Shown here piece by piece: positions 7,470 to 36,680 of a stretch of 51,105 nucleotides of DNA. This DNA is from a virus, in the IMG/VR virus record IMGVR_UViG_3300045988_086227; one strand, given 5' to 3'. The first letter of the stretch is position 1, and each line of letters starts with the position of its first letter. A program made the translations under genes and the position numbers. Under the pieces are notes generated by a model that was not told the DNA's origin, ran no database searches, and saw only the letters and a program-made list of their open reading frames with translations.

Positions 7470-9908
7470 GTGGCGAAAGACCTTGACTACTATCTGGCGC
7501 AGGCACGCCGTATTGCCGAGCATCGGGAGGAAGGGGCAGAAGAAGCCATTAGCAAGGAGTTCAGGAAGCTGCTCAAAGACCTGAAATCCTACATTGCTGA
7601 TGTACATGAAAAGTATGCGGCAGGCGATGGCTCTCTGTCCTTTTCCGATCTACAAAAGGCAAGCTATGATGCCCGCTTCCTTGAAGAAATCGAGAAGCGC
7701 GTATCCGTTGCTACGCCCAAAGTGGCAAAGGAGTTGCACCAACTTGTAAACGATACTTACGAGCTGAGCTACAAGAGCATGATTGAGGGCGTTGATAAAG
7801 TCATGGCAGGTGCTGGTCTTGACGAAACGTTTGCCGATGCTTTGGCAATCACACCAGAGCAGATCAGGAAGGTAGTCAAGAATCCAATCATGGAAGTCGC
7901 GCTCGAAAAGAACCACCGGGACATCGTGTACGACATCAAGCAGGCAGTTGCAGTCGGATTGATGAACGGCGACCGGTACGCCACGATTGCCCAGAAAATC
8001 AATGTCGCACTGGATAAAGAGAACGGCTTATATAAGAACGCCATGCGGATTGCCCGCACGGAAGCACACCGCGTCCGAGAAGCAGGAAACAAGGATGCTG
8101 CTGAATCTGTAGATAAGGAACTACAGAACGGCACAACGGGAATGCGCATGTGCAAGACGTGGCATACCATGAAGGACGAGCGTGTGCGCCCACAACGCCG
8201 CCGGAGGGGGAAAAAGGGCTGGTCTACCAAGATGGGCAATGGCGCAAACCACATGAAGCTGGAAGGGCAGACGGTGCTCGCTGATGAACCGTTCGACCTT
8301 CTCGATGGCAACAAAGCCGATGCGCCGGGTCAGAGCGGCATTGCTGGGCATGACATCAACTGCCGGTGCTATGTGTCCTATGAGATGATGAACGATGCGG
8401 AGTTTTTTGCAAAGACGGGAAAACATTTTCCAGGGTCGCCTGCCGTATTGGAAGAGCAGACGCTCAAAAAAGAAATGACGCTGATTGGCGAACAAGGTAA
8501 GCTGAAAGCGGACTACAATGCCGTTGAAAATGAAATGCAGCAGCTTGATTCAAAACAGTTTGCGAACATCTGGAAGAATCCGGTCTCTGCGAAGGATTAT
8601 GAAGCACTGAAAGAGCGCCTCCCTGCAAAGAAAGCATATTTTCAAGCAAACAGCAAGACGGACATGCTGGCACTTTGCGATGAATTTGAGAAAACGGGAA
8701 AAAAATACGCACTCGCAAAGGACAAGCTCACAACGATTGAGAAGTCATTGGATAGTGTTTCGGATAATCTCAAAGCCACAAGACTTGAGTTGATGAAGGT
8801 TCGCGGCATTGACCCGAAGAAAATGCAGGAAGACATTGACGACCTGACGAAAAAAATAACGAATCTCAAATCGCCAGTCATGAAAAAGGTCTCAATGGGC
8901 ACAAAAGTCAAAAACTATGACCAGAAGCAGCTCAAAGATGCGTTGAAGGTCATCCTTCCTAATTCAGATGATGATGAACTTGACGCCATTCTGAAAAAGT
9001 ACGCTGATTCCACAATCAAGGGTCTTGTTGATGGTAGCACATACTTCTCATCTACCAAAACCGCGTTCAAGAAGAAGCTCGAAAGTCTTGCTGCAGTCCC
9101 CTCTGGTGATCCTTCGGAGATTAAGAGGCTGGAGAAACTCCTGAACGACAAAGCTGATGAACTTGCTAAAATCAAGAAGCGATACGGACTTGAACTGGAT
9201 GATAAATTCTCCAAGGAACGAAAGGACAAGGCATACTGGTTCACTGGTTCCGACGCAAAGCCTCGTGCGGATAAGGTGCTGCGCCCTGATACCGGTGCTG
9301 TATGGCAAGCTGCACGGGCGGAAGAACGCAAGGCTGCATTCGAGTATACAGCTGGGAGCGGTTCTTTTAACCGCCCTCTGCGCGGCTATGATGGCTCTTG
9401 GCACAACTTCAAAGGGGCGGGCAACGTTGACCTTAACAATGAGGGAAACGGCGAAGGCATTAAGCAATTGACAAACCTCATCAACAAGAGCAAGTACGAT
9501 TTCGACATCTGGCTTCAGCGTGGTATTGAAAGTGATTCTGGTGCAGCCGCATTCCTTGGTATCCCGGAAAAAATGTTAGATTACTCCGAAGATGAACTGA
9601 AACTGAAACTTCTTAACAAAGGTATAACGGATGATGCGTTTGTTTCTACGGCAGCGGCAAAGGGCAGCGGGTTCTCCGGTCGCTTGATTCTTAACATCTA
9701 TGCGCCAAAGGGTACAAAGATGATCTATGCTGAACCGTTTTCAAAATACGGGAGCGGAGCAGAACTAAACTGGGATGGTAAGACAGGGCAGAGCAGTTTC
9801 GGTAGTGAGTTCGAGGTTATACTGCAAAGAGGCACGAAATTTAGAATCACTAAGGTTAAAAAGTCCGGAAGCCGGATTTATGTTGATGTTGACATTGTTG
9901 GTCAGTAA
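7470..9908 (+). CDS. MuF/SPP1 gp7-like head morphogenesis protein fused to a C-terminal ADP-ribosyltransferase toxin domain
   Basis: The MuF-like N-terminal third ends at HDINCRCYV and is followed by a coiled-coil linker. The C-terminus carries R (NRPLRGY, R at 9381-9383), S-T (FVSTAAA, 9645-9650) and ExE (SEFEV, 9807-9815). Confidence 0.8.
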   Translation: MAKDLDYYLAQARRIAEHREEGAEEAISKEFRKLLKDLKSYIADVHEKYAAGDGSLSFSDLQKASYDARFLEEIEKRVSVATPKVAKELHQLVNDTYELSYKSMIEGVDKVMAGAGLDETFADALAITPEQIRKVVKNPIMEVALEKNHRDIVYDIKQAVAVGLMNGDRYATIAQKINVALDKENGLYKNAMRIARTEAHRVREAGNKDAAESVDKELQNGTTGMRMCKTWHTMKDERVRPQRRRRGKKGWSTKMGNGANHMKLEGQTVLADEPFDLLDGNKADAPGQSGIAGHDINCRCYVSYEMMNDAEFFAKTGKHFPGSPAVLEEQTLKKEMTLIGEQGKLKADYNAVENEMQQLDSKQFANIWKNPVSAKDYEALKERLPAKKAYFQANSKTDMLALCDEFEKTGKKYALAKDKLTTIEKSLDSVSDNLKATRLELMKVRGIDPKKMQEDIDDLTKKITNLKSPVMKKVSMGTKVKNYDQKQLKDALKVILPNSDDDELDAILKKYADSTIKGLVDGSTYFSSTKTAFKKKLESLAAVPSGDPSEIKRLEKLLNDKADELAKIKKRYGLELDDKFSKERKDKAYWFTGSDAKPRADKVLRPDTGAVWQAARAEERKAAFEYTAGSGSFNRPLRGYDGSWHNFKGAGNVDLNNEGNGEGIKQLTNLINKSKYDFDIWLQRGIESDSGAAAFLGIPEKMLDYSEDELKLKLLNKGITDDAFVSTAAAKGSGFSGRLILNIYAPKGTKMIYAEPFSKYGSGAELNWDGKTGQSSFGSEFEVILQRGTKFRITKVKKSGSRIYVDVDIVGQ

Positions 9909-13689: not shown

Positions 13690-13764
13690 GCGGCTGTGGC
13701 GCAACGGTAGCGCAACGGACTTATAATCCGTGTGTCGTGGGTTCGACTCCTACCAGCCGTACCA
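13690..13764 (+). tRNA. tRNA-Ile, anticodon UAU, CCA encoded
   Basis: Hand-folded cloverleaf: acceptor GCGGCTG/CAGCCGT; D arm GCGC-AACGGTA-GCGC; anticodon arm ACGGA-CTTATAA-TCCGT; variable loop GTGTC; T arm GTGGG-TTCGACT-CCTAC; discriminator A plus CCA. Confidence 0.85.
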
Positions 13765-18105: not shown

Positions 18106-19113
18106 ATGGCTTACGACGTGAAGGTAAACATTGACCTCGCCAAGCCCGTTGGTCAGCTCGGTTTCGGCGTTCCGCTGATCCTTGTTGAGAATGCGGAGAA
18201 AGAGGTAGCGTATACCGAAGTCTCCAACACCGAAGAGATTGTGTCGGCTGGCATCAGCAACACGAGCGTTGCTTATAAGGCTGCGCAGCTCTTATTCTCC
18301 CAGACGAACTCGCCCAAGACGATTGCTGTCTGCGCAGCGACTGCTGCGGCGACTGCTGCTCTTGCAAATACCATGCTGACCGACAAGGGCTGGCGGCAGC
18401 TCATTGTTGTGACGGACGGCGAATCTCCCAGCACTCCTGCCGCAATCAGCACGCTGGTTGAGGCGCTGGATGGCAAGATGTACTTTGCCAATCTGCCCGT
18501 GGACGATAAAACCAGTATCACCGTTTCTGGTCTGCGCCGGACTGTACTGTTCTATTGCACGCCCACGGACGATTACCCCGTCCCTGTCGCAGCACTTGTC
18601 GGCAATACCGCTGGTCTCTCTGCTGGCAGCTTCACCTACAAGAACATGGTTCTCTCCGGAATCAAGCCGCAGGACTTGACGGATTCCGAGATTGAAGCCA
18701 TTCACAAGAAGGGCGGCATCACCTTCGTAACGAAAGCCGGTGACAATGTTACCAGCGAAGGAAAGGTTGCTGGCGGTGAATATATCGACATCATCGACAG
18801 TGAAGACTATATCATCCAGCAGCTTGCCTACAAAACCCAGAAGGTGTTGAACAACACGAAGAAGGTGCCCTATGACAACAACGGCATCGCCTTGCTGGAA
18901 AGCGTGGCAGCGGACGTGTTGCAGGACGCATATAATCAGGGCATGATTGTCACCAACACGGACGGCACTCCCGGCTACACGGTTTCCTACGCCATGCGCG
19001 AAGACACCAAGGCAACCGACCGTGCCAACCGCAAGTACCTCGGCGGCAGCTTCTCTTTTGCGCTGACCGGCGCAATTCATGAGGTCGAAATCACCGGCGA
19101 GATCACTGTTTAA
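18106..19113 (+). CDS. Tail sheath protein (DUF3383-like)
   Basis: 335 aa. The C-terminal pattern GGEYIDIIDSEDYIIQQL...VPYDNNGIALLESVAADVLQ is typical of sheath C-terminal domains. A tube-like gene follows. Confidence 0.65.
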   Translation: MAYDVKVNIDLAKPVGQLGFGVPLILVENAEKEVAYTEVSNTEEIVSAGISNTSVAYKAAQLLFSQTNSPKTIAVCAATAAATAALANTMLTDKGWRQLIVVTDGESPSTPAAISTLVEALDGKMYFANLPVDDKTSITVSGLRRTVLFYCTPTDDYPVPVAALVGNTAGLSAGSFTYKNMVLSGIKPQDLTDSEIEAIHKKGGITFVTKAGDNVTSEGKVAGGEYIDIIDSEDYIIQQLAYKTQKVLNNTKKVPYDNNGIALLESVAADVLQDAYNQGMIVTNTDGTPGYTVSYAMREDTKATDRANRKYLGGSFSFALTGAIHEVEITGEITV

Positions 19114-19127
19114 GGAGGCAAACGAAT

Positions 19128-19526
19128 ATGGCTATCAATGTTACTGTCTATGACGCAAAGGATACGTCCGTCATTGTCAATAACACCTATATTACCGGTC
19201 TTGGTGAAGACATGATCTCCATCGAAAAGGACGAGGATTTTTTCTCCACGTCTGTCGGTGCGCAGGGCGATGTGGTGAAATCTCAGACCAACAATACCCT
19301 TGGTACCGTTACGGTCTATGTGCAGCCCACCAGCCCGCAGAAGCATTTCTTGATGGGGCTGGCAAAGTTGTCCGACCCCTTCCCGCTGTGGTGTGTCAAC
19401 AAGAAACTGGGGGAACGCTCTGGCGGCACGATGGCTTCCCTCAAGTCCTTCCCGGAAATCTCTCGCGGCGCGGAAGCTGAAGACATGGAGTTCGTCTTTC
19501 AGGTGTTCGACCTGACGGTTGAGTAA
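19128..19526 (+). CDS. Tail tube protein (DUF3277-like)
   Basis: 132 aa with the pattern VIVNNTYITGLGEDMISIEKDEDFFSTSVGAQGDVV...VTVYVQPTSPQ. Confidence 0.6.
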   Translation: MAINVTVYDAKDTSVIVNNTYITGLGEDMISIEKDEDFFSTSVGAQGDVVKSQTNNTLGTVTVYVQPTSPQKHFLMGLAKLSDPFPLWCVNKKLGERSGGTMASLKSFPEISRGAEAEDMEFVFQVFDLTVE

Positions 19527-19566: not shown

Positions 19567-19601
19567 TAAAACGACTTAAAAACATGAGGAGGAATATCAA
19601 A

Positions 19602-19916
19602 ATGGCTGACAGCAAGTTTTATCAGGTGAAGAAGACGATTGGCGGCAAGGAGTACATTGCGCAGTTTGGCGGCATCTCTGTCGCACTGAAAGCGGTGGAT
19701 GCTTCCTACATCGAGGGTACGTCTACCACCAGCGTGCAGAAGCTGGCTGAGTACCTTTTCCAGCACGTCATTGTCGAGCCGAAGGGTCTGACCCCTGATG
19801 ACTTCGATACTCTGGACGAGTTCAATGAGGTCGTTTCTTTCGCTCGCGGTGTGATGCAGGGCAGTTTTCGAGCCGAAGCTGACGCAGACGCAGCTAAAGC
19901 AGCGGGCAAAAAGTAA
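19602..19916 (+). CDS. Tail assembly chaperone (XkdN-like), 0-frame product
   Basis: ATG 19602 follows GAGGAGG. Sequence KKTIGGKEYIAQFGGISVALKAVD. Lies between the tube and tape-measure genes. Confidence 0.6.
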   Translation: MADSKFYQVKKTIGGKEYIAQFGGISVALKAVDASYIEGTSTTSVQKLAEYLFQHVIVEPKGLTPDDFDTLDEFNEVVSFARGVMQGSFRAEADADAAKAAGKK

Positions 19917-20073
19917 CTGGAACTTATGGCGGCTGGTTCTGTCTGATCGCGGCTTTGACTTTCAGACGGTGTTTGGTAAGCCCTTCATGTCGCCTAATGA
20001 TGTGATGGAGGCAAACTACGCGCTGGACATGCAGATTGAGGCGGAAAAACGCGCAGCGAAGAAGAAGCGGTGA
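19909..20073 (+). CDS. Chaperone C-terminal extension, reached by a putative +1 (or -2) frameshift at CAAAAAGUAA
   Basis: The +1 frame is open over 19855-20073 and overlaps the 0-frame stop (19914-16). It encodes SNWNLWRLVLSDRGFDFQTVFGKPFMSPNDVMEANYALDMQIEAEKRAAKKKR and has no RBS or start of its own. Confidence 0.4.
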   Translation, partial: KSNWNLWRLVLSDRGFDFQTVFGKPFMSPNDVMEANYALDMQIEAEKRAAKKKR

Positions 20074-20117
20074 GCATGGCTTGCCGCTTCTTCTTACTGC
20101 CCTAAGGGGGGATGATT

Positions 20118-20872
20118 ATGGGAGTTGTGCGCGAAGACGTTGTGAGAATGGGGTTCGACATCGACTTTGCCGAACTCACCAGATTAACAGGCGCACTGGA
20201 TGAAATCAAGACCATTTTGACCGGTGGAATTGGCGGTGATGCTTTCGATGAAATGACAGACGAGAGCAGGCAGGCAGCGAGAGGCATCAACGAAATCAGA
20301 GACAGCGTAAATAGGATTAACCCAGACGGAATTGATGATACTGTCGACAGTTTGAGAGATACCGACCGCGAAGGTGAAGATGCCCATAAGCAGCTCAAAA
20401 AGATAGCCGAGCAAAAATTCAACAAAACTGTTTCCGGTCTGAAATCCATCGGAAAGACACTGGGCAAGGTTGGCGTTGAGGCTGGTAAACTTCTTGCAAA
20501 AGGCATAGCTGCAGGCGCGGCAGGCGCTGGTGCTCTGGTCGCAAAATCCATTACGAATTATGCAGACTATGAGCAGCTTGTCGGCGGCGTTGATACGCTG
20601 TTCAAGGATAGCTCCGGCACGGTGCAGATGTACGCTGATGATGCTTTCAAAACAGCTGGCATGTCTGCAAATGACTACATGGAAACAGTCACGTCTTTCT
20701 CTGCTTCCCTGATTCAATCGCTTGGCGGGAATACGGGAGCGGCGGCTGAATTGGCGAATACGGCAATCATTGATATGTCAGACAACGCCAACAAGATGGG
20801 CACAGATATATCCAGCATTCAGGACGCTTATCAGGGGTTTGCAAAGCAAAACTACACTATGCTCGATAACCT
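20118..20872 (+). CDS. Tape measure protein, exon 1
   Basis: ATG 20118 (or 20112) follows GGGGGG. The ORF ends ...SIQDAYQGFAKQNYTMLDNL and then runs 9 codons into the intervening sequence to TAA 20898-20900. Confidence 0.7.
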
Positions 20873-21076
20873 TAACGCAATGGGGGCGCTCGCCGCATAA
20901 ATGAAGGGCGATGCGCGAATCTTCTCTGATTGACTTGGAACTCCCGGCGGGGACAACAGGGCGCAAGGGTAATGCCAGCGTGAACGACTAAGTGAGAAGA
21001 CACCCGCGAGGGTGAAGCGATAGTCTGAACTGCACCGATAACGCAATCAATGGATGAAAGTGCAGATAACACAGTG
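20873..21076 (+). ncRNA. Putative ORF-less group I intron (204 nt)
   Basis: The 5' exon ends in U and the element ends in G. Hand-found pairings: P2 20886-94/20907-16, P3 20921-26/20994-99, P7 20986-90/21021-25, P8 21001-05/21010-14 (GCGA loop), P9 21030-35/21060-65. Removal restores one continuous tape-measure frame. Confidence 0.55.
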
Positions 21077-24000
21077 CAAATTGGGCTATGGTGGCACGCA
21101 GGAAGAAATGAAGCGGTTGCTGAAAGATGCAGAAGCTATTTCTGGCGTGAAATACGACATTTCTTCCTACGCGGATATTGTCAGTGCAATCCATGTGATT
21201 CAGGAAGAGATGGACATCGCAGGCACTACTGCGAAGGAAGCCAGCGAAACCATCAGCGGTTCATGGTCTTCCTTGAAAGCTGCATGGAGCAACACCTTGA
21301 CCAGCTTGATTCTGGGCGGTGACGATTTTGACCGTTGCCTTGAAAACCTGATTGAATCCGCAAAAACATTCGGCAAGAATATCATGCCTGCGTTGCTGAA
21401 AGCCCTTGAAGGCGTTGGCAAGTTGATTGAGGCTTTTGCTCCAATCATTGAGAAAGAACTGCCGACAATCGTCGAAACGCTTCTTCCTCCGCTGATTAAG
21501 GCGGCTACGGCTCTTGTGAAGGGGCTTATTGTTGCGCTTCCCGGCATCATCAGCACACTCGTCGGAGAATTGCCTTACATCTTGCAGCAGGTCTGGGAAG
21601 GCATTTCCGAGGCGTTCGGTGACATTCCCGGCATTGACAAGGTTGGAAAATTCTTTACCAAGCTCAAAGACCTCATCACAGAGAATACAGCCCTTATCAA
21701 AAAAATCATTCCCGCCGCCCTTGGTCTCGTGCTTGCAATTAAGCTGTTTAACAAAATCAAAGGAATCAGCAGTCTGTTCGGCGGAGGTGGCGGTGCTGGC
21801 GGCGGATTCTTTTCTGGTCTGGCGAAGATGAACCCGAAGACTGCGCTGAAAGGCATCCTGAATCTTGCCATCATCCTTGGCGGTTTGAGCCTTCTTGCCG
21901 CTGCGCTGATGGCTGCCGCGCCTTACATGGCACAGTTATCAGACTTGCAATCCATCGCGAAAGTTCTGCTCGTCATCGGTGCCGTTGGTCTGATCGGAAC
22001 TGCAATGGCAGAGCTGGCTGGTAAAGTTGGCAGTATCCCTGTTGCAACGGTACTGAAAGGCGTTGCAAATATCGCAATTGCCCTCGTCGGGTTTGGTGCA
22101 TTGGCGGCTGTCCTCATGTGGCTTGCCCCGTACATGGCGCAGCTTTCCGATATTGGAACAACGGCGAAGATTCTTCTCATTATTGGCATGACAGCCCTTG
22201 TTGGTGCTGGTCTTGCTGGTCTCGCAGGTCTGATTGGCGCAATCCCTATTACGGCGGTACTGACAGGGCTTGCCAATATTGCACTTGCACTGGGAGGCTT
22301 TGCAGGCATTGCCACGGCATTCGGTGCGCTGTCGAAAGTAGAAGGTTTCACCGAACTGATGAGCAGCGGTGGTCAAGTGATGGCTGACATCTGCCGAATC
22401 GTTGGTGAAATGGCTGGCTCGCTGATTGGCGGCATTGGTGAAGGAATCACTGCTTCGCTTCCAGCCATTGGCGAAAACTTGTCTTCCTTTGCAACTTCGA
22501 TTCAGCCCATGTTTGAAACGTTCAGCGGCGTGGATACAGCAAGCCTGTCCGATTTTGCAACGTCATTCGCAACATTTATTGCCGTAATTGCAGGGGAAAA
22601 AATCGTTGGTCTTATAACAGGTGGAATTGACTATGCGGGTCTTGGCACAAAGCTAAGCAGCATGGCGACGGGGTTGAGTGGATTCTTCACCACTATCATG
22701 ACCCTCCCGGACGGCTGCTTTGAAAAGGCAACAGCACTCTTTAACTGCTTGGCTGGTATCAGTGCTATGCCGAAGGAAGGCGGCATTGTTGGCTGGTTCG
22801 AGGGTGAAGTTGACTATGCGAAGATGGCAACCGGTCTGAACCAACTGGCAGGAACTGCTGGAGCATTTGCTACATTCCAAAGCATCCCCGAAGAAGCCTT
22901 TACCGCTGCAACCAATCTATTTAATTGTCTGAATGGCATCGGTCTGCTTCCTAATAGCGGCGGCGTTGTGCAATGGTTCACGGGCGAGGTGGACTATACA
23001 GGAATTGCAACCGGTCTGAATGCGCTGGCTGGAACAACCGCATTCTTTGCGGCAGTGCAGGCGATTCCAGCAGAGGCATTCACGGCGGCTACGAACCTGT
23101 TCAACTGCCTGTCTGGAATCGGAGCTCTTCCGAATTCTGGCGGCATCATGCAGTGGTTCACCGGTGAAGTGGACTATCAGAGCATTGCAGACGGTGTTGC
23201 GATCCTTGGCGGTGCCAGTATGATGGCAGCACTTACCGCAATCACAGGTATTCCAGCGGAGGCATATACCAGTCTTTCAGCGCTGTTTGACGCGCTGGCA
23301 GGAATCAAGCAAATGCCCGAACAAGGCGGCATCTTCGGCTGGTTCACAGGCGACAGTACAACCGGGCTCACTAATGTTGCGGGGCAACTCCCAGGCGTTG
23401 CGACAAGCATTGCGTCCTTCTTCACTAATCTTGGTGGAATCACTGACTTCACGCCAATCAAGTCGCTGTTCGACACATTGAGCAACATCAAGATTGATTC
23501 CGATGCTGCAAGCAAAGGCTTCCTTGGTCTCGGTTCAAGCCAACTTGAATCAATGGGCGCAGGGCTGTCGAGCTTTGCCACGAATGCGGAAACGTTCTTC
23601 ACGAAGATTAATAATCTAAAACTGTATAAGCTGAAAGGTTTCTTTTCGGAACTGAGTACAGTTGGTGAATTGCCAACTGCACTCTCAACGCTTGACAGCA
23701 CGGTCGGAACGAATTTGAGCAATCTTGTCACGACTGCCGAAACAAGGCTGACGGAGTTGAAAGGGAAATTTTCTGATAAACTGGGCGAAATCGTAACACT
23801 GCTTGAGCTCACGGCAACCGCCATGTACAGCTCAGGCGAGGCAATCATGGATGGCGTGAACAATGGCATGGAATCCAAGCGCAGCACACTGGTTGCAACG
23901 GCTCAGTCTATCGCTCAGGCGATTCAGGATGCATTCGATGTTAAGATGGACATCAGTTCGCCTTCCAAGGAAACGTACAAGTCTGGCGTATTTGTCGGTG

Positions 24001-24302
24001 AAGGCTACAACCTCGGTATGAAAAGCAAGATTCCCGACCTAAAGGCAACTGCTGCGGATTTGGGGTCTGCGTCTATCCCGTACAGCAGCCGTTACAGCCC
24101 AGAATCCGAAGGAAGCACTGTTACAAACAACAGCACGACAAGCAGCGAGTACACGACCATTGCTCCGGCTTTCAACCTGACTATCAGCGGAACACAGGAT
24201 GACAGAGCGACGGCGCGGAGGGTCAAGCAGTGGGTGAACGAGTCCATGCAGGAATTCTTCGCAAGCCTTGACCGAAAAAATACTGTTATGCGGGAGGTGT
24301 AA
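21077..24302 (+). CDS. Tape measure protein, exon 2
   Basis: Reads (L)KLGYGGTQEEMKRLLKDAEAISGVKYDISSY..., then hydrophobic helical repeats and a long C-terminal region. ATG 21054 has no RBS. Confidence 0.75.
22620..23355 (+). repeat. Four diverged ~62-aa (~186-bp) tandem repeats inside the tape measure
   Basis: Units of the form ...GG(I/V)(V/M)(G/Q)WF(E/T)GEVDY..(I/M)A.GL..LAG......IP.EAFTAATNLFNCL.GI..(L/M)P..GG. Similarity is at protein level; the DNA has diverged. Confidence 0.7.
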
Positions 24303-34004: not shown

Positions 34005-35540
34005 TTACAGCAGCAAGTAAATGTGCAGTCTGAACTGCGTTTCGCGTCCTTTCCTTCCGATGAAATCGTATTCGATTCTCCGCACAATCGCCTTCATGAG
34101 GCGGTTTTTTTGTTCCGGAGAAATCGTTTCATCCCGCAACCCTGCAACAGCCTCTTTGAGCTTGACAATCTTGTCTTTGTAGTCAATCTCTTTCGGAAGG
34201 TTCTGCTTAGCCTCGTATATCTTCGACCGCAGTTCCTCCATCTGCGCGTGGAGGGCTTTGTTCCTTTTCAGAAATACTTCTTCGGTATATGTGCCACTTT
34301 CCAGCAAGTCATGCTGCCGGTCTTCCTTGGCGACCAGCGCATCCATTTCTTTGTTCATCTTCTCAATCATCTTCTTCTGGATGCTTGCAGCTTTGCCATC
34401 GTTGTTATGCAGCTTGACTTCCAGTTCCGGCAGGTGCTCCATTTCCAGCGCAAAAGCCACGGCATCCACAACAACGCGCAGCTTCGCGGAGTTCGCATTG
34501 CAACCGCTCCGATTTCGGCACTCGACGCGCGTTTCAGCGTGCGGATAGGGATGCTGCGCCATAGCCTTCCCGCACTTGCAGCAAACGAGGATGCCAGCCA
34601 GCGGGTTCTTCAGATCCGTATCTACCTTCCTTCTCGGATTGTTGTCCATCTTCGCCTGTGCTGCCTCAAACAGCTCCAGTGGTACGATTGCAGGCTGCTT
34701 TCCTTTTGCGACGACAACTTCTTCCTTTGGCTGCTTCACGGAATGCAGGACGATTTCGCCGTTCTCGACGAATTTTTCCTTTCGCCTGTCTCCGAACACG
34801 ACCAGTCCGATGTAGTGCCGATTTTTCAGCATGACACGGATGGAGGTTTTTTCCCATGACTCGGTGCGGTATGGTTTAATCCCCATCTTGTCAAAGTGGC
34901 GGGCAATCTCCAGATATGTCCGCCCTTCGTTGACGTACATTTCAAACGCCATCAGTACAGCCGGTGCATATTCGTTCGGTTCGAGTGTACAGTCCCCGTC
35001 GGTATTGACGACCTTGTTATATCCGAATGGTGGGATGTTGCCGATGTAGCATCCGCGCTTCACGGCGGCGATCCGACCGCGCAGCAGAATCTCCTTCGTG
35101 TATTCGAGAAAGTCATTGCCGCGCATCAACTCCTGCTCGAAGAATTTCCGCTGCATCTTGTTAGTGAGGTCGTATGTCATGGTCAGCGTGACGACCTCTG
35201 TCTTGGAGAACCGGAAGGCATTCACGCATTTCCCGCAATCCTCCAAGTCTCCGCGTGAAAGACGCTGCGGGTCTGCGCACAACACGCCGCGCAGCTTTGG
35301 GTTCTCAATCATCGAAAGAACGATGTTGAACTGCGGGCGTTCCGCAATCGTTTCACCGGAAACCACTTCCCGGAAAATGCAATGCTCCGGGATGCGACCT
35401 CCAAGGTCACGTTCTGCAAGCTCCTGCAAGAGTGATTCGTGCTTTTCCAGCACCTCCTCTACCGATTCGTGCGGGTTATCCGCACGAGATTTCCGCAAGT
35501 ACATGATGTACTCATCTGCTGTCAAAATGTTGTCTGCCAT
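34005..35540 (-). CDS. int: Large serine recombinase (prophage integrase)
   Basis: Resolvase-type N-terminus YLRKSRAD (catalytic Ser), a recombinase domain, the Cys cluster CCKCG...ECRNRSGC and a C-terminal coiled coil. ATG 35540 chosen as start. Confidence 0.9.
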   Translation of the reverse strand: MADNILTADEYIMYLRKSRADNPHESVEEVLEKHESLLQELAERDLGGRIPEHCIFREVVSGETIAERPQFNIVLSMIENPKLRGVLCADPQRLSRGDLEDCGKCVNAFRFSKTEVVTLTMTYDLTNKMQRKFFEQELMRGNDFLEYTKEILLRGRIAAVKRGCYIGNIPPFGYNKVVNTDGDCTLEPNEYAPAVLMAFEMYVNEGRTYLEIARHFDKMGIKPYRTESWEKTSIRVMLKNRHYIGLVVFGDRRKEKFVENGEIVLHSVKQPKEEVVVAKGKQPAIVPLELFEAAQAKMDNNPRRKVDTDLKNPLAGILVCCKCGKAMAQHPYPHAETRVECRNRSGCNANSAKLRVVVDAVAFALEMEHLPELEVKLHNNDGKAASIQKKMIEKMNKEMDALVAKEDRQHDLLESGTYTEEVFLKRNKALHAQMEELRSKIYEAKQNLPKEIDYKDKIVKLKEAVAGLRDETISPEQKNRLMKAIVRRIEYDFIGRKGRETQFRLHIYLLL

Positions 35541-35680
35541 TCCTTCTTTCCCCCTATGCTTGGTTACAAATGTAGTTGCAATTATTGCTGACAAAGATGA
35601 AAGTTTCACCCCCTTTTTCTTGGTATTTCCGCAGTGTCCCGGCAATCACCCCCTTTCAGAAGGGCACTCTATATATATCG

Positions 35681-36250: not shown

Positions 36251-36409
36251 ATGACCCCCAAGGAAGAACTGATCGCGTACATTAGGAGCCTCTCAGCGGA
36301 AGAAGCAAAAGAAGCGCTTCTTATCGCTTCTGCTTGGCTTTCAGAGCTGCAAGAAGCAAAGCAGCATCCTCGTCAGAAAGAGTCTTTACCATTTCAATTA
36401 GCGCATTGA
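36251..36409 (+). CDS. Small ORF (52 aa) convergent with and overlapping the 3' end of XRE-B
   Basis: Strong RBS AAAGGAG 8 nt upstream. Sequence MTPKEELIAYIRSLSAEEAKEALLIASAWLSEL... Overlaps 36321..36680 by 89 nt on the opposite strand. Confidence 0.35.
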   Translation: MTPKEELIAYIRSLSAEEAKEALLIASAWLSELQEAKQHPRQKESLPFQLAH

Positions 36410-36680
36410 CGTTTTCTGAAAGCCCGTTATCTTCAGCGGGCTTTTCTTGCTCCACCTTATCTTCAATTAAGTCTGATTTCTGGATTCCAAAATAATCAGC
36501 CATAATTTCGATTCGATCTATACGCGGGTACTTTTTTCCGTTCACCCACTCCGTCACGGTGGAATAAGGAAAGCCCCATGTATTCGCGAGCTCACGCCTG
36601 TCTTTCCCTGATTGCTCAATATAGCGTTTCAGATTCTTTGAGAATATAGCCTTGTTACCAAGTGCACTCACCTTCATCAC
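36321..36680 (-). CDS. XRE-family HTH regulator (repressor candidate B)
   Basis: Pattern FSKNLKRYIEQSGKDRRELANTWGFPYSTVTEWVNGKKYPRIDRIEIMADYFG. The true start may be GTG 36671, 8 nt after GGAGG. Confidence 0.8.
   Translation of the reverse strand: MMKVSALGNKAIFSKNLKRYIEQSGKDRRELANTWGFPYSTVTEWVNGKKYPRIDRIEIMADYFGIQKSDLIEDKVEQEKPAEDNGLSENVNALIEMVKTLSDEDAALLLAALKAKQKR

What the first reader, a model, noticed from the sequence alone, without database searches (positions are those of the whole stretch)
20873..21076. Putative ORF-less group I intron interrupting the tape-measure gene
**Exon evidence**
- Seen: ORF 20112..20900 ends ...AYQGFAKQNYTMLDNL and then NAMGALAA-stop.
- Seen: ORF 21054..24302, in another frame and with no RBS, begins MKVQITQC and then KLGYGGTQEEMKRLLKDAEAISGVKYDISSY.
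- From memory of Firmicutes-phage tape-measure N-terminal domains, ...QNYTMLDNLKLGYGGTK.EM.RLL... is one contiguous conserved block.
- Deleting 20873-21076 (204 nt) joins CU|C into a Leu codon and gives exactly ...MLDNL-KLGYGG... in one frame. The two exons total 755+3226 = 3981 nt, or 1326 codons plus the stop.

**Intron-like features**
- The boundaries fit group I rules: the 5' exon ends in U (20872) and the element ends in G (21076).
- Helices found by eye, in canonical order:
  - P2 20886-94/20907-16
  - P3 20921-26/20994-99
  - P7 gacta/tagtc 20986-90/21021-25
  - P8 caccc-GCGA-gggtg 21001-14
  - a 6-nt J8/7
  - P9 ctgcac/gtgcag 21030-35/21060-65
- The segments acgacuaag and gauagucug resemble the conserved R and S elements.

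**Caveats and significance**
- P1 is only about 5 bp, and I could not fold P4-P6 with confidence.
- At about 200 nt this would be among the smallest group I introns.
- An intron in a tape-measure gene would make tail assembly depend on splicing.
Basis: partly seen in the sequence, partly recalled or inferred. Interest (0 to 1): 0.75.

Follow-up and report, generated by a model that had tools for sequence, protein, structure and literature searches.

The report
Small group I intron in tape-measure gene

Summary
Observation and interpretation both hold. Window 20873-21076 (204 nt) splits the tape-measure gene. Removing it gives one 1328-codon ORF. That ORF aligns without a gap across the junction to uninterrupted phage tape-measure proteins, whose genes lack exactly these 204 nt.

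Rfam's Intron_gpI model finds nothing here. It also misses T4 nrdB and scores T4 td below threshold, so that negative does not refute the reading.

The core has homologues in at least 150 viral and genome contigs, splitting other genes such as ribonucleotide reductase and coat protein. Alignments of 85 cores and of 24 same-site full-length introns support P2, P3, P5, P6, P7 (pseudoknot), P8 and P9 by compensatory changes. About 95% of cells are paired, against 35-51% when the partners are slid.

Every same-site copy ends in G and follows an exon U that can pair with an internal GGGG. Relatives carry HNH, GIY-YIG, LAGLIDADG or EndoVII genes in P6 or P8, including three at this same site.

A model built from the family weakly finds the three known Twort introns.

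P1 is short and untested by covariation, and splicing itself is not shown. Tape-measure introns were described in 2008, so this is a new member of a known kind.

The parts
20112..20872 (+). Exon 1 of the tape-measure gene. The likelier start codon is 20118, just after the GGGGGG run at 20105-20110.
20873..21076 (+). ORF-less group I intron, 204 nt.
   Evidence: Homologous genes lack exactly 204 nt. Relatives and covariation support the structure. Family model R1 scores 117.9 bits on the core, and the window was in the training set.
21077..24302 (+). Exon 2 of the tape-measure gene. The ATG at 21054 lies inside the intron and is spurious.
20870..20885 (+). P1: CCU|UA (20870-74) pairs with UGGGG (20881-85). 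The splice-site U20872 pairs with G20883. Only 3 exon base pairs.
   Evidence: The pairing is compatible in 24/24 same-site introns but invariant, so covariation says nothing. Relative L004 has an 8-bp P1 with U.G at a junction fixed by the protein sequence.
20886..20916 (+). P2 hairpin: GCGCUCGCC (20886-94) pairs with GGCGA-u-GCGC (20907-16). The L2 loop holds the in-frame stop TAA at 20898-20900.
   Evidence: 7 of 9 pairs have compensatory changes. An in-frame stop (TAA, or TAG in L007) sits in L2 in all 24 aligned same-site copies, read by eye.
20920..21000 (+). P3: UCUUCUC (20920-26) pairs with GAGAAGA (20994-21000). It encloses P4-P6 and the 5' strand of P7.
   Evidence: 7/7 pairs covary and 99.2% are paired in 85 sequences. 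RNAalifold predicts it independently.
20934..20960 (+). P4: CUUG (20934-37) pairs with CAGG (20957-60). J4/5 is GAA and J5/4 is CAA. P5: UCCC (20942-45) pairs with GGGA (20950-53), with loop GGCG.
   Evidence: All 5 P5 pairs covary. P4 is invariant, partly because the search pattern required it, with one U.G to U-A change. RNAalifold predicts both.
20961..20981 (+). P6: GCGC (20961-64) pairs with GCGU (20978-81). P6a: GG (20967-68) pairs with CC (20975-76).
   Evidence: C-G to G-C compensatory changes occur at two P6 pairs and at one P6a pair in same-site introns. Relatives carry ORFs inserted here.
20984..21026 (+). P7 pseudoknot: A20984, bulged C20985 and GACUA (20986-90) pair with UAGUC-U (21021-26). 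G20986-C21025 is the presumed guanosine-binding pair.
   Evidence: 100% paired. A-U/G-C covariation occurs at the closing pair and at the fifth pair, and one C-G to G-C change at another. The GACUA...AUAGUC sequence also appears in the RF00028 consensus.
21001..21014 (+). P8 hairpin: CACCC-GCGA-GGGUG.
   Evidence: 5/5 pairs covary. In three same-site relatives this loop holds an antisense HNH gene.
21015..21020 (+). J8/7: AAGCGA.
   Evidence: Conserved as (A/U)GCGA in 85 cores.
21030..21065 (+). P9: CUGCAC (21030-35) pairs with GUGCAG (21060-65), closing a 24-nt loop L9.
   Evidence: 3 of 6 pairs covary. L9 repeats the 5' junction sequence, which is unexplained.
21076..21076 (+). Terminal guanosine (omega-G) at the 3' splice site.
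   Evidence: Invariant G in 24/24 same-site introns, while the 3-4 preceding bases vary.

Best explanation
Window 20873-21076 is a compact, ORF-less group I intron in the tape-measure gene of a temperate contractile-tailed phage of gut Clostridia.

**Inferred mechanism (not shown)**
- The late transcript folds into P1-P9.
- An exogenous guanosine bound at the G20986-C21025 pair of P7 attacks after U20872, which pairs with G20883 in P1.
- The freed exon-1 3'-OH then attacks after the terminal G21076.
- The exons join as ...GAU AAC CU|C AAA UUG..., and the full-length tape-measure protein of about 1326 aa is translated.
- Ribosomes on unspliced RNA stop at the conserved in-frame UAA in the P2 loop (20898-20900), before reaching the catalytic core, and make only a 262-aa fragment.

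**Origin**
- The element belongs to a large family of phage introns with the same core.
- Other copies at this very site carry an antisense HNH homing endonuclease in P8.
- The 204-nt form is therefore most likely an endonuclease-less derivative that is inherited passively, or moved by recombination or by an endonuclease supplied in trans.

**Shown versus inferred**
- Shown: insertion boundaries, family membership, structure supported by covariation, and endonuclease cargo in relatives.
- Inferred: catalysis, splice chemistry, the role of the stop codon and the mode of spread.
For: **Boundaries**
- The fusion restores one ORF and the conserved block ...QNYTMLDNL|KLGYGGT....
- Contiguous homologous genes lack exactly 204 nt.

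**Family**
- The core matches unrelated phages, where it sits between two halves of a coat gene and of a ribonucleotide reductase gene.
- There are 119+ viral loci with the core pattern, plus 32 viral and 6 genome contigs with the same-site pattern.

**Structure**
- In 85 cores, 94.9% of cells are paired against 37-43% with slid partners. The covariation score is 0.428 against 0.150 in shuffles, reached by 0 of 500 shuffles.
- RNAalifold independently recovers P3, P4, P5, P6, P6a and P8.
- In 24 full-length same-site introns, 95.6% of cells are paired. P2, P6 and P9 covary.

**Splice sites**
- The U before the intron and the G at its end are invariant.
- In relative L004, splicing at the U.G pair of an 8-bp P1 and at a G restores the reductase motif TNPCSEI.

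**Cargo in relatives**
- HNH_3+NUMOD4, GIY-YIG, Endonuclease_7 and LAGLIDADG ORFs lie in P6 or P8 of relatives.

**Link to proven introns**
- With filters off, family model R1 places its three best hits in a 5-kb Twort region on the three orf142 introns, on the right strand (E = 0.001-0.016).
- The RF00028 consensus shares GACUA...GAUAUAGUCU with this element.
Against: - RF00028 gives no hit, even at E <= 10 on 551 nt, nor on three relatives.
- P1 has only 3 exon base pairs plus 2 intron pairs, two of them G.U. It is invariant in the same-site set, so covariation cannot support it.
- P10 is at best 2 bp.
- The C20941/C20954 position closing P5 is a mismatch here and in many relatives.
- R1 does not detect the T4 td or nrdB introns, and its hits on Twort are weak.
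- There is no expression or splicing data. The four identical copies come from one metagenome sample.
Confidence: 0.88

Rival explanations
1. The element is a decayed group I intron that no longer splices. The tape-measure gene is then a pseudogene and the phage is defective.
For: P1 is very short and there is no endonuclease ORF. RF00028 gives no hit. No splicing data exist.
Against: - 24 distinct same-site introns in different phage backgrounds keep every helix through compensatory changes. This indicates selection on the fold.
- Both exons remain open over about 4 kb, with synonymous variation at the junction.
- The weak P1 is shared by the whole subfamily rather than being a private lesion.
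Confidence: 0.07
2. The gene is genuinely split into two proteins (262 aa and 1082 aa), separated by a structured non-coding RNA with some other role.
For: Mechanical ORF calling gives two ORFs. Public annotations of relatives split the host genes in this way.
Against: - ORF 21054 starts inside P9, with no ribosome-binding site, and its first 8 codons are intron sequence.
- The break falls in the middle of a conserved block that is contiguous in 300+ phage genes.
- The same RNA interrupts unrelated genes at conserved motifs, for example TNPC|SEI.
Confidence: 0.03
3. The gap is crossed by translational bypassing or frameshifting, or the insert is another kind of mobile element (MITE, IS or group II intron).
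For: A 9-nt direct repeat, TAACGCAAT, lies at 20873-81 and 21039-47.
Against: - Deleting the DNA between the repeats removes 166 nt and does not restore the frame.
- There are no terminal inverted repeats.
- 204 nt is far longer than known bypasses, which are about 50 nt in T4 gene 60 (own knowledge).
- It is far shorter than a group II intron.
- The covariation pattern is that of a group I core.
Confidence: 0.01

Closest known systems
Group I introns in tape-measure genes of Bacillus cereus-group prophages (TMP-IVS1, 2, 3a, 3b; Tourasse and Kolsto 2008, PMC2504315); one is also noted in Lactobacillus phage JCL1032
   Same: These are group I introns inside the tape-measure gene of temperate Firmicutes phages. 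Several lack a complete endonuclease gene and are spread by the phages. They target conserved stretches of the gene.
   Different: They are described as IA1 or IA2 (PMC2504315). IA2 introns carry P7.1/P7.2 between P7 and P3', as the Twort introns show, and that region is absent here. No blastn similarity to the present intron appeared in the phage collection.
Staphylococcus phage Twort orf142 introns (IA2; a crystal structure exists, from own knowledge)
   Same: They are phage structural-gene introns. The J3/4, P7, J8/7-P7' (GAUAGUCUGAAC) and P9 regions are similar. The family model hits all three.
   Different: Twort has about 50-100 extra nt (P7.1/P7.2) between P7 and P3' (alignments). RF00028 scores Twort at 64-101 bits and the present family at nothing.
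Azoarcus pre-tRNA-Ile intron (IC3, 205 nt; own knowledge)
   Same: It is a minimal group I ribozyme of about 200 nt with only P1-P9 and no large peripheral domains.
   Different: It sits in a tRNA anticodon loop of a bacterial chromosome. The sequence differs, and its relation to this family was not tested here.
T4 td, nrdB and nrdD introns
   Same: These are phage group I introns with endonuclease ORFs in peripheral loops. Like the present family, nrdB is missed by RF00028 and td scores below threshold.
   Different: Their ORFs are on the sense strand, they are larger, and the family model does not detect them.

Membership tests
Group I intron | Core helices P3-P9 in canonical order, including the P3/P7 pseudoknot, maintained by compensatory changes. 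| tested here: met
   - 85 sequences, 94.9% paired against 37-43% with slid partners. P3 covaries at 7/7 pairs, P5 at 5/5, P8 at 5/5 and P7 at 3/6.
- RNAalifold agrees.
- P2, P6 and P9 covary in 24 same-site introns.
- P4 is invariant and therefore uninformative.
Group I intron | P7 with a bulged nucleotide next to a G-C pair (the guanosine-binding site), flanked by conserved J6/7 and J8/7. | tested here: met
   - A-c-GACUA pairs with UAGUC-U at 20984-90/21021-26, with A-U/G-C covariation of the pair across the bulge.
- The same GACUA...AUAGUC appears in the RF00028 consensus.
- Actual guanosine binding was not tested.
Group I intron | The 5' splice site follows a U that forms a U.G pair with an internal guide sequence (P1). 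| tested here: inconclusive
   - In the window, U20872 pairs with G20883 within a 5-bp P1 that has only 3 exon pairs. It is invariant in 24/24 copies, so it is compatible but unsupported by covariation.
- In relative L004, an 8-bp P1 has U.G exactly at the junction fixed by the reductase motif.
Group I intron | The intron ends in G (omega-G). | tested here: met
   G21076 is invariant in 24/24 same-site introns, while the preceding bases vary. L004 also ends in G.
Group I intron | Precise removal restores a conserved host gene. | tested here: met
   For a relative.
Group I intron | Homing-endonuclease ORFs occur in peripheral loops of family members. | tested here: met
   HNH_3+NUMOD4 lies antisense in P8 at the same tape-measure site. 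GIY-YIG, Endonuclease_7 and LAGLIDADG occur in other members. The window copy itself has none.
Group I intron | A match to Rfam RF00028. This is a detection tool, not a defining property. | tested here: not met
   - No hit at the gathering score or at E <= 10.
- Controls: T4 nrdB gives no hit and T4 td gives 40.3 bits, below 50. Twort gives 64-101 bits.
- The model's incompleteness is stated in PMC6125680 and PMC11878797.
Group I intron | Guanosine-dependent self-splicing. | not testable with these tools
   This needs in vitro transcription with GTP, or RNA from infected or induced cells.
Subgroup IA1/IA2 (typical phage introns) | Extra helices P7.1/P7.2 between P7 and the 3' strand of P3. | tested here: not met
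   Only 3 nt (AGU, 20991-93) separate P7 from P3'. Twort has a long insert there. I therefore do not file the element under IA1/IA2. Other subgroups (IA3, IC3) could not be tested, because the GISSD models were not available.

The most novel reading that the evidence does not exclude
This compact phage clade may be an undescribed structural subclass of group I introns, one that current models miss and that includes the smallest natural group I ribozymes.
- Its features are P7 abutting P3', a 4-bp P4, an optional P2, and a length of 172-212 nt without an ORF.
- In the tape-measure subfamily, the 3-bp exon pairing and the L9 loop that copies the 5' splice-site sequence hint at an unusual way of presenting or regulating the substrate.
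Probability: 0.2. Interest if true: 0.55.

Novelty: new member of a known kind. Interest (0 to 1): 0.33.

Why it matters
**Annotation**
- The tape-measure gene here, and the coat and reductase genes in relatives, are called as two fragments in public records.
- At least 150 loci share a core that Rfam's group I model does not see. The alignments made here (A1, A2) could seed a model that fixes this.

**Ribozyme work**
- The family offers naturally minimal group I cores of 197-212 nt, and possibly 172 nt.
- These are at or below the lower size limits quoted for the GISSD subtypes IA3 (205 nt) and IB4 (203 nt) (PMC6125680).

**Phage biology**
- Tail length determination in this phage would depend on RNA splicing. 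That dependence is already known in principle from Bacillus prophages (PMC2504315).

Tried and rejected
- **Rfam** was run at gathering and permissive thresholds on the window and three relatives and gave nothing. Controls showed that this negative is not informative.
- **Single-sequence folding** of 20860-21090 is not distinguishable from shuffles (z = -1.26). This is expected for a pseudoknotted ribozyme, so I did not use it.
- **Family model R1** finds no second copy in the window. One hit at 36393-36512(-) with E = 2.7 is chance. R1 also does not detect T4 td or nrdB.
- **The 9-nt direct repeat** TAACGCAAT was tested as a target-site duplication and rejected. The 166-nt deletion does not restore the frame and there are no terminal inverted repeats.
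- **Splice junctions of the coat-gene intron in L003** could not be fixed from ORF continuity alone, because there were too many candidates. I abandoned this.
- **Alternative boundaries** were considered by reading.
  - Shifting the 204-nt deletion by +1 to +3 also gives ...NLKLG..., using CUU for Leu, but the intron would then end in C or A.
  - Only 20873-21076 has U before the 5' site and G at the end, and that G is invariant.
- **A literature search** for 'smallest group I intron' returned nothing.

Full report
**1. The observation**

ORF 20112-20900 ends ...QNYTMLDNL and runs nine codons further to a TAA. ORF 21054-24302 opens with eight unrelated codons and then reads KLGYGGTQEEMKRLL....

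- Deleting 20873-21076 (204 nt) gives one ORF of 1328 codons from the ATG at 20112.
- The fused N-terminus matches PHROG 6900 (tape measure) in one stretch across the junction.
- It aligns without a gap to the uninterrupted tape-measure protein of Ruminococcus phage NatCom_2329, identical over AYQGFAKQNYTMLDNLKLGYGGT.
- At the DNA level, the two flanks hit contiguous tape-measure genes in 308 phage records.
- For many of these (NatCom_2329/3870, phiLC3, 63301, IPP25, TMW 1.1381 P1, MT836579), the record span is exactly 204 nt shorter than the query span.

Homologues are therefore neither split here nor carrying this segment as coding sequence.

**2. The Rfam negative**

- RF00028 (Intron_gpI) gives no hit in the window at the gathering score.
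- It gives none at E <= 10 on 20700-21250, and none in three relatives.
- As a control I ran the same search on proven introns.
  - In T4, nrdB gives nothing and td gives only 40.3 bits, below the gathering score of 50.
  - In Twort, the three orf142 introns score 64-101 bits.
- The model is thus good for some phage introns and blind to others.
- Nawrocki et al. 2018 (PMC6125680) and the 2025 Bastillevirinae study (PMC11878797) both say RF00028 does not capture group I diversity.

**3. Relatives**

- blastn of the 204 nt alone found its core (about 20918-21030) in unrelated phages.
  - In MW202674 it sits between two 'P22 coat protein' CDS fragments.
  - In Roseobacter phage CRP-118 it sits between two 'ribonucleotide reductase' fragments.
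  - It also occurs in a Desulfovibrio phage.
- It occurs once in the window, with 0 expected.
- A pattern specific to the tape-measure site found 32 viral contigs and 6 genome contigs.
  - The genome contigs are Lachnospiraceae, Oscillospiraceae and Acutalibacteraceae MAGs, Senegalimassilia, and two 'Streptomyces' contigs, one at least of low coverage.
- These give 27 distinct introns at exactly this site.
  - 24 are ORF-less, at 197-212 nt.
  - 3 are 741-753 nt and carry an ORF in P8.
- The window's intron is identical in three contigs from one metagenome sample.

**4. Structure**

*Core alignment, 85 sequences.* In a MAFFT alignment of 85 distinct cores (A1), I wrote out P3, P4, P5, P6, P6a, P7 (as a pseudoknot) and P8 and counted pairs.
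- 94.9% of cells are standard pairs, against 37-43% when the 3' partners are slid by 1-3 columns.
- The covariation score is 0.428 against 0.150 in shuffles, reached by 0 of 500 shuffles.
- P3 covaries at 7/7 pairs, P5 at 5/5 and P8 at 5/5.
- P7 covaries at 3/6 pairs. This includes A-U/G-C at the pair across the bulge and at the fifth pair.
- RNAalifold, which knows nothing of my assignment and cannot draw pseudoknots, returned the same P3, P4, P5, P6, P6a and P8.
- P4 and P6 are invariant in A1, partly because the search pattern required them.

*Same-site alignment, 24 sequences.* This set was found with a different pattern and aligned full-length with 8-nt exon flanks (A2).
- 95.6% of cells are paired, against 35-51% when slid.
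- P2 covaries at 7/9 pairs and P9 at 3/6.
- P6 and P6a together show C-G to G-C exchanges at three pairs.
- P4 shows one U.G to U-A change.

*Window coordinates.*

| Element | Coordinates | Note |
|---|---|---|
| P1 | 20870-74 / 20881-85 | |
| P2 | 20886-94 / 20907-16 | |
| P3 | 20920-26 / 20994-21000 | |
| P4 | 20934-37 / 20957-60 | |
| P5 | 20942-45 / 20950-53 | |
| P6 | 20961-64 / 20978-81 | |
| P6a | 20967-68 / 20975-76 | |
| P7 | A20984, GACUA 20986-90 / UAGUCU 21021-26 | bulged C20985 |
| P8 | 21001-05 / 21010-14 | |
| J8/7 | 21015-20 | |
| P9 | 21030-35 / 21060-65 | |
| omega-G | 21076 | |

**5. Splice sites**

- In all 24 same-site introns, the exon ends ...AACCU and the intron ends in G before CAA. 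The 3-4 bases before that G vary.
- Shifting the 204-nt window by +1 to +3 would encode the same protein but would end the intron in C or A. Only 20873-21076 fits the group I rules.
- P1 is the weak point.
  - CCU|UA pairs with UGGGG, giving 3 exon pairs and two G.U pairs.
  - It is invariant, so it is untested by covariation.
  - P10 is at most 2 bp.
- In relative L004 (CRP-118), the predicted 8-bp P1 (AAAUCCGU/GCGGAUUU) puts its U.G pair exactly where a join to a downstream G restores the reductase motif ...GTNPCSEIILRPYQFCNL.
- That intron would be only 172 nt long.

**6. Homing endonucleases**

- The three long same-site introns carry, antisense in P8, a 164-aa protein with HNH_3 and NUMOD4 domains.
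- Other members carry GIY-YIG, Endonuclease VII or LAGLIDADG proteins in P8 or P6.
- This is the classical cargo of mobile group I introns.
- It implies that the 204-nt copy is an endonuclease-less derivative.

**7. Link to proven ribozymes**

- A covariance model of the family core (R1) finds only the one copy in the window.
- It does not see the T4 introns.
- Run with filters off on 5 kb of Twort, its three best hits fall on the three orf142 introns on the correct strand, at 21.5, 16.3 and 16.2 bits (E = 0.001-0.016).
- Those hits align P3, J3/4, P7, P3', P8 and J8/7-P7'.
- The RF00028 consensus printed shares ...AGACUA... and ...GAUAUAGUCU... with the present element.
- Unlike Twort, the present family has only 3 nt between P7 and P3', so it lacks P7.1/P7.2. 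I therefore do not file it under IA1/IA2. Other subgroups could not be tested.

**8. Context**

The window is a temperate contractile-tailed phage. Its gene order is:
- large terminase, portal, and a minor head protein with an ADP-ribosyltransferase domain;
- scaffold and major head;
- neck, tail terminator, sheath (18106-19113) and tube (19128-19526);
- chaperone, tape measure, baseplate and endolysin;
- serine integrase (34005-35645, minus strand) and a replication module.

**9. Mechanism and rivals**

- The best reading is an active group I intron. Its removal from the late transcript is needed to make the full-length tape-measure protein.
- Ribosomes on unspliced RNA stop at the conserved in-frame stop in the P2 loop. 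This stop is TAA, or TAG in L007, and is present in all 24 aligned same-site copies (read).
- Catalysis is inferred, not shown.
- A dead remnant is unlikely, because 24 variants keep every helix through compensatory changes.
- A true gene split, translational bypass or another element type is not compatible with the boundary and covariation data.

**10. Novelty**

- Group I introns in tape-measure genes of Bacillus cereus-group prophages were described in 2008, at three sites, with some lacking endonucleases (PMC2504315).
- Spliced introns in capsid and tail genes of mycobacteriophages are also known (PMC3706429).
- This is therefore a new member of a known kind.
- The modest added value is a large, compact intron family that Rfam's group I model does not see, with members at or below the sizes quoted for the GISSD subtypes (205 and 203 nt, PMC6125680).

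Noticed in passing
window 21036-21056 versus 20863-20885: The P9 loop repeats the 5' exon/intron junction. CGATAACGCAATCAATGG resembles CGATAACCT|TAACGCAATGGGG, with an exact 9-mer TAACGCAAT at 20873-81 and 21039-47. In about 10 of 24 same-site introns the resemblance beats shuffles, and the two copies change together: L138 has TAACAAAATG in both and L139 has TAACACAATG in both. Others show no resemblance. I have no explanation.
   Followed up: partly
L004 2979-3150 (Roseobacter phage CRP-118, OR420741): A family member splits the ribonucleotide reductase gene at TNPC|SEI and appears to be only 172 nt long. That is shorter than the 205-nt Azoarcus intron usually cited as minimal (own knowledge). 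The record annotates two separate reductase CDS.
   Followed up: partly
L054, L131, L144 (same tape-measure site): The homing-endonuclease gene (HNH_3+NUMOD4, 164 aa) lies on the strand opposite to the intron and host gene, inside P8.
   Followed up: partly
window 19584-20072: The tail assembly chaperone ORF ends at 19916 (...AAGKK*). A +1-frame ORF continues from the overlap GGC AAA AAG TAA / G GCA AAA AGT AAC to a stop at 20070-72. This suggests a programmed +1 frameshift rather than the usual -1.
   Followed up: partly
window 20059-20097: A perfect stem of about 17 bp (GAAGAAGAAGCGGUGAGC...GCUUGCCGCUUCUUCUU) lies between the chaperone and the tape-measure start. The 73-nt stretch folds at -39.7 kcal/mol, and no U-run follows the stem.
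   Followed up: no
window 13690-13764: A tRNA-Ile with anticodon UAU lies inside the head-gene module.
   Followed up: no
window 7470-9908: The minor head (SPP1 gp7-like) protein has a C-terminal ADP-ribosyltransferase domain. It matches PHROG 16625 and 3895 over residues 555-811.
   Followed up: no
L088 6900-7009 and 7341-7450; L106 3166-3296 and 4468-4589: Two copies of the intron core lie within 0.5-1.3 kb of each other on single viral contigs. This suggests genes with two introns of this family.
   Followed up: no
L127, L129 (contigs labelled Streptomyces sp. P9(2023) and P17): The same-site tape-measure intron appears in contigs labelled Streptomyces. One has coverage of about 1.5x, and its intron sequence is identical to a viral contig (L136). 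This is probably contamination rather than an actinobacterial host.
   Followed up: no
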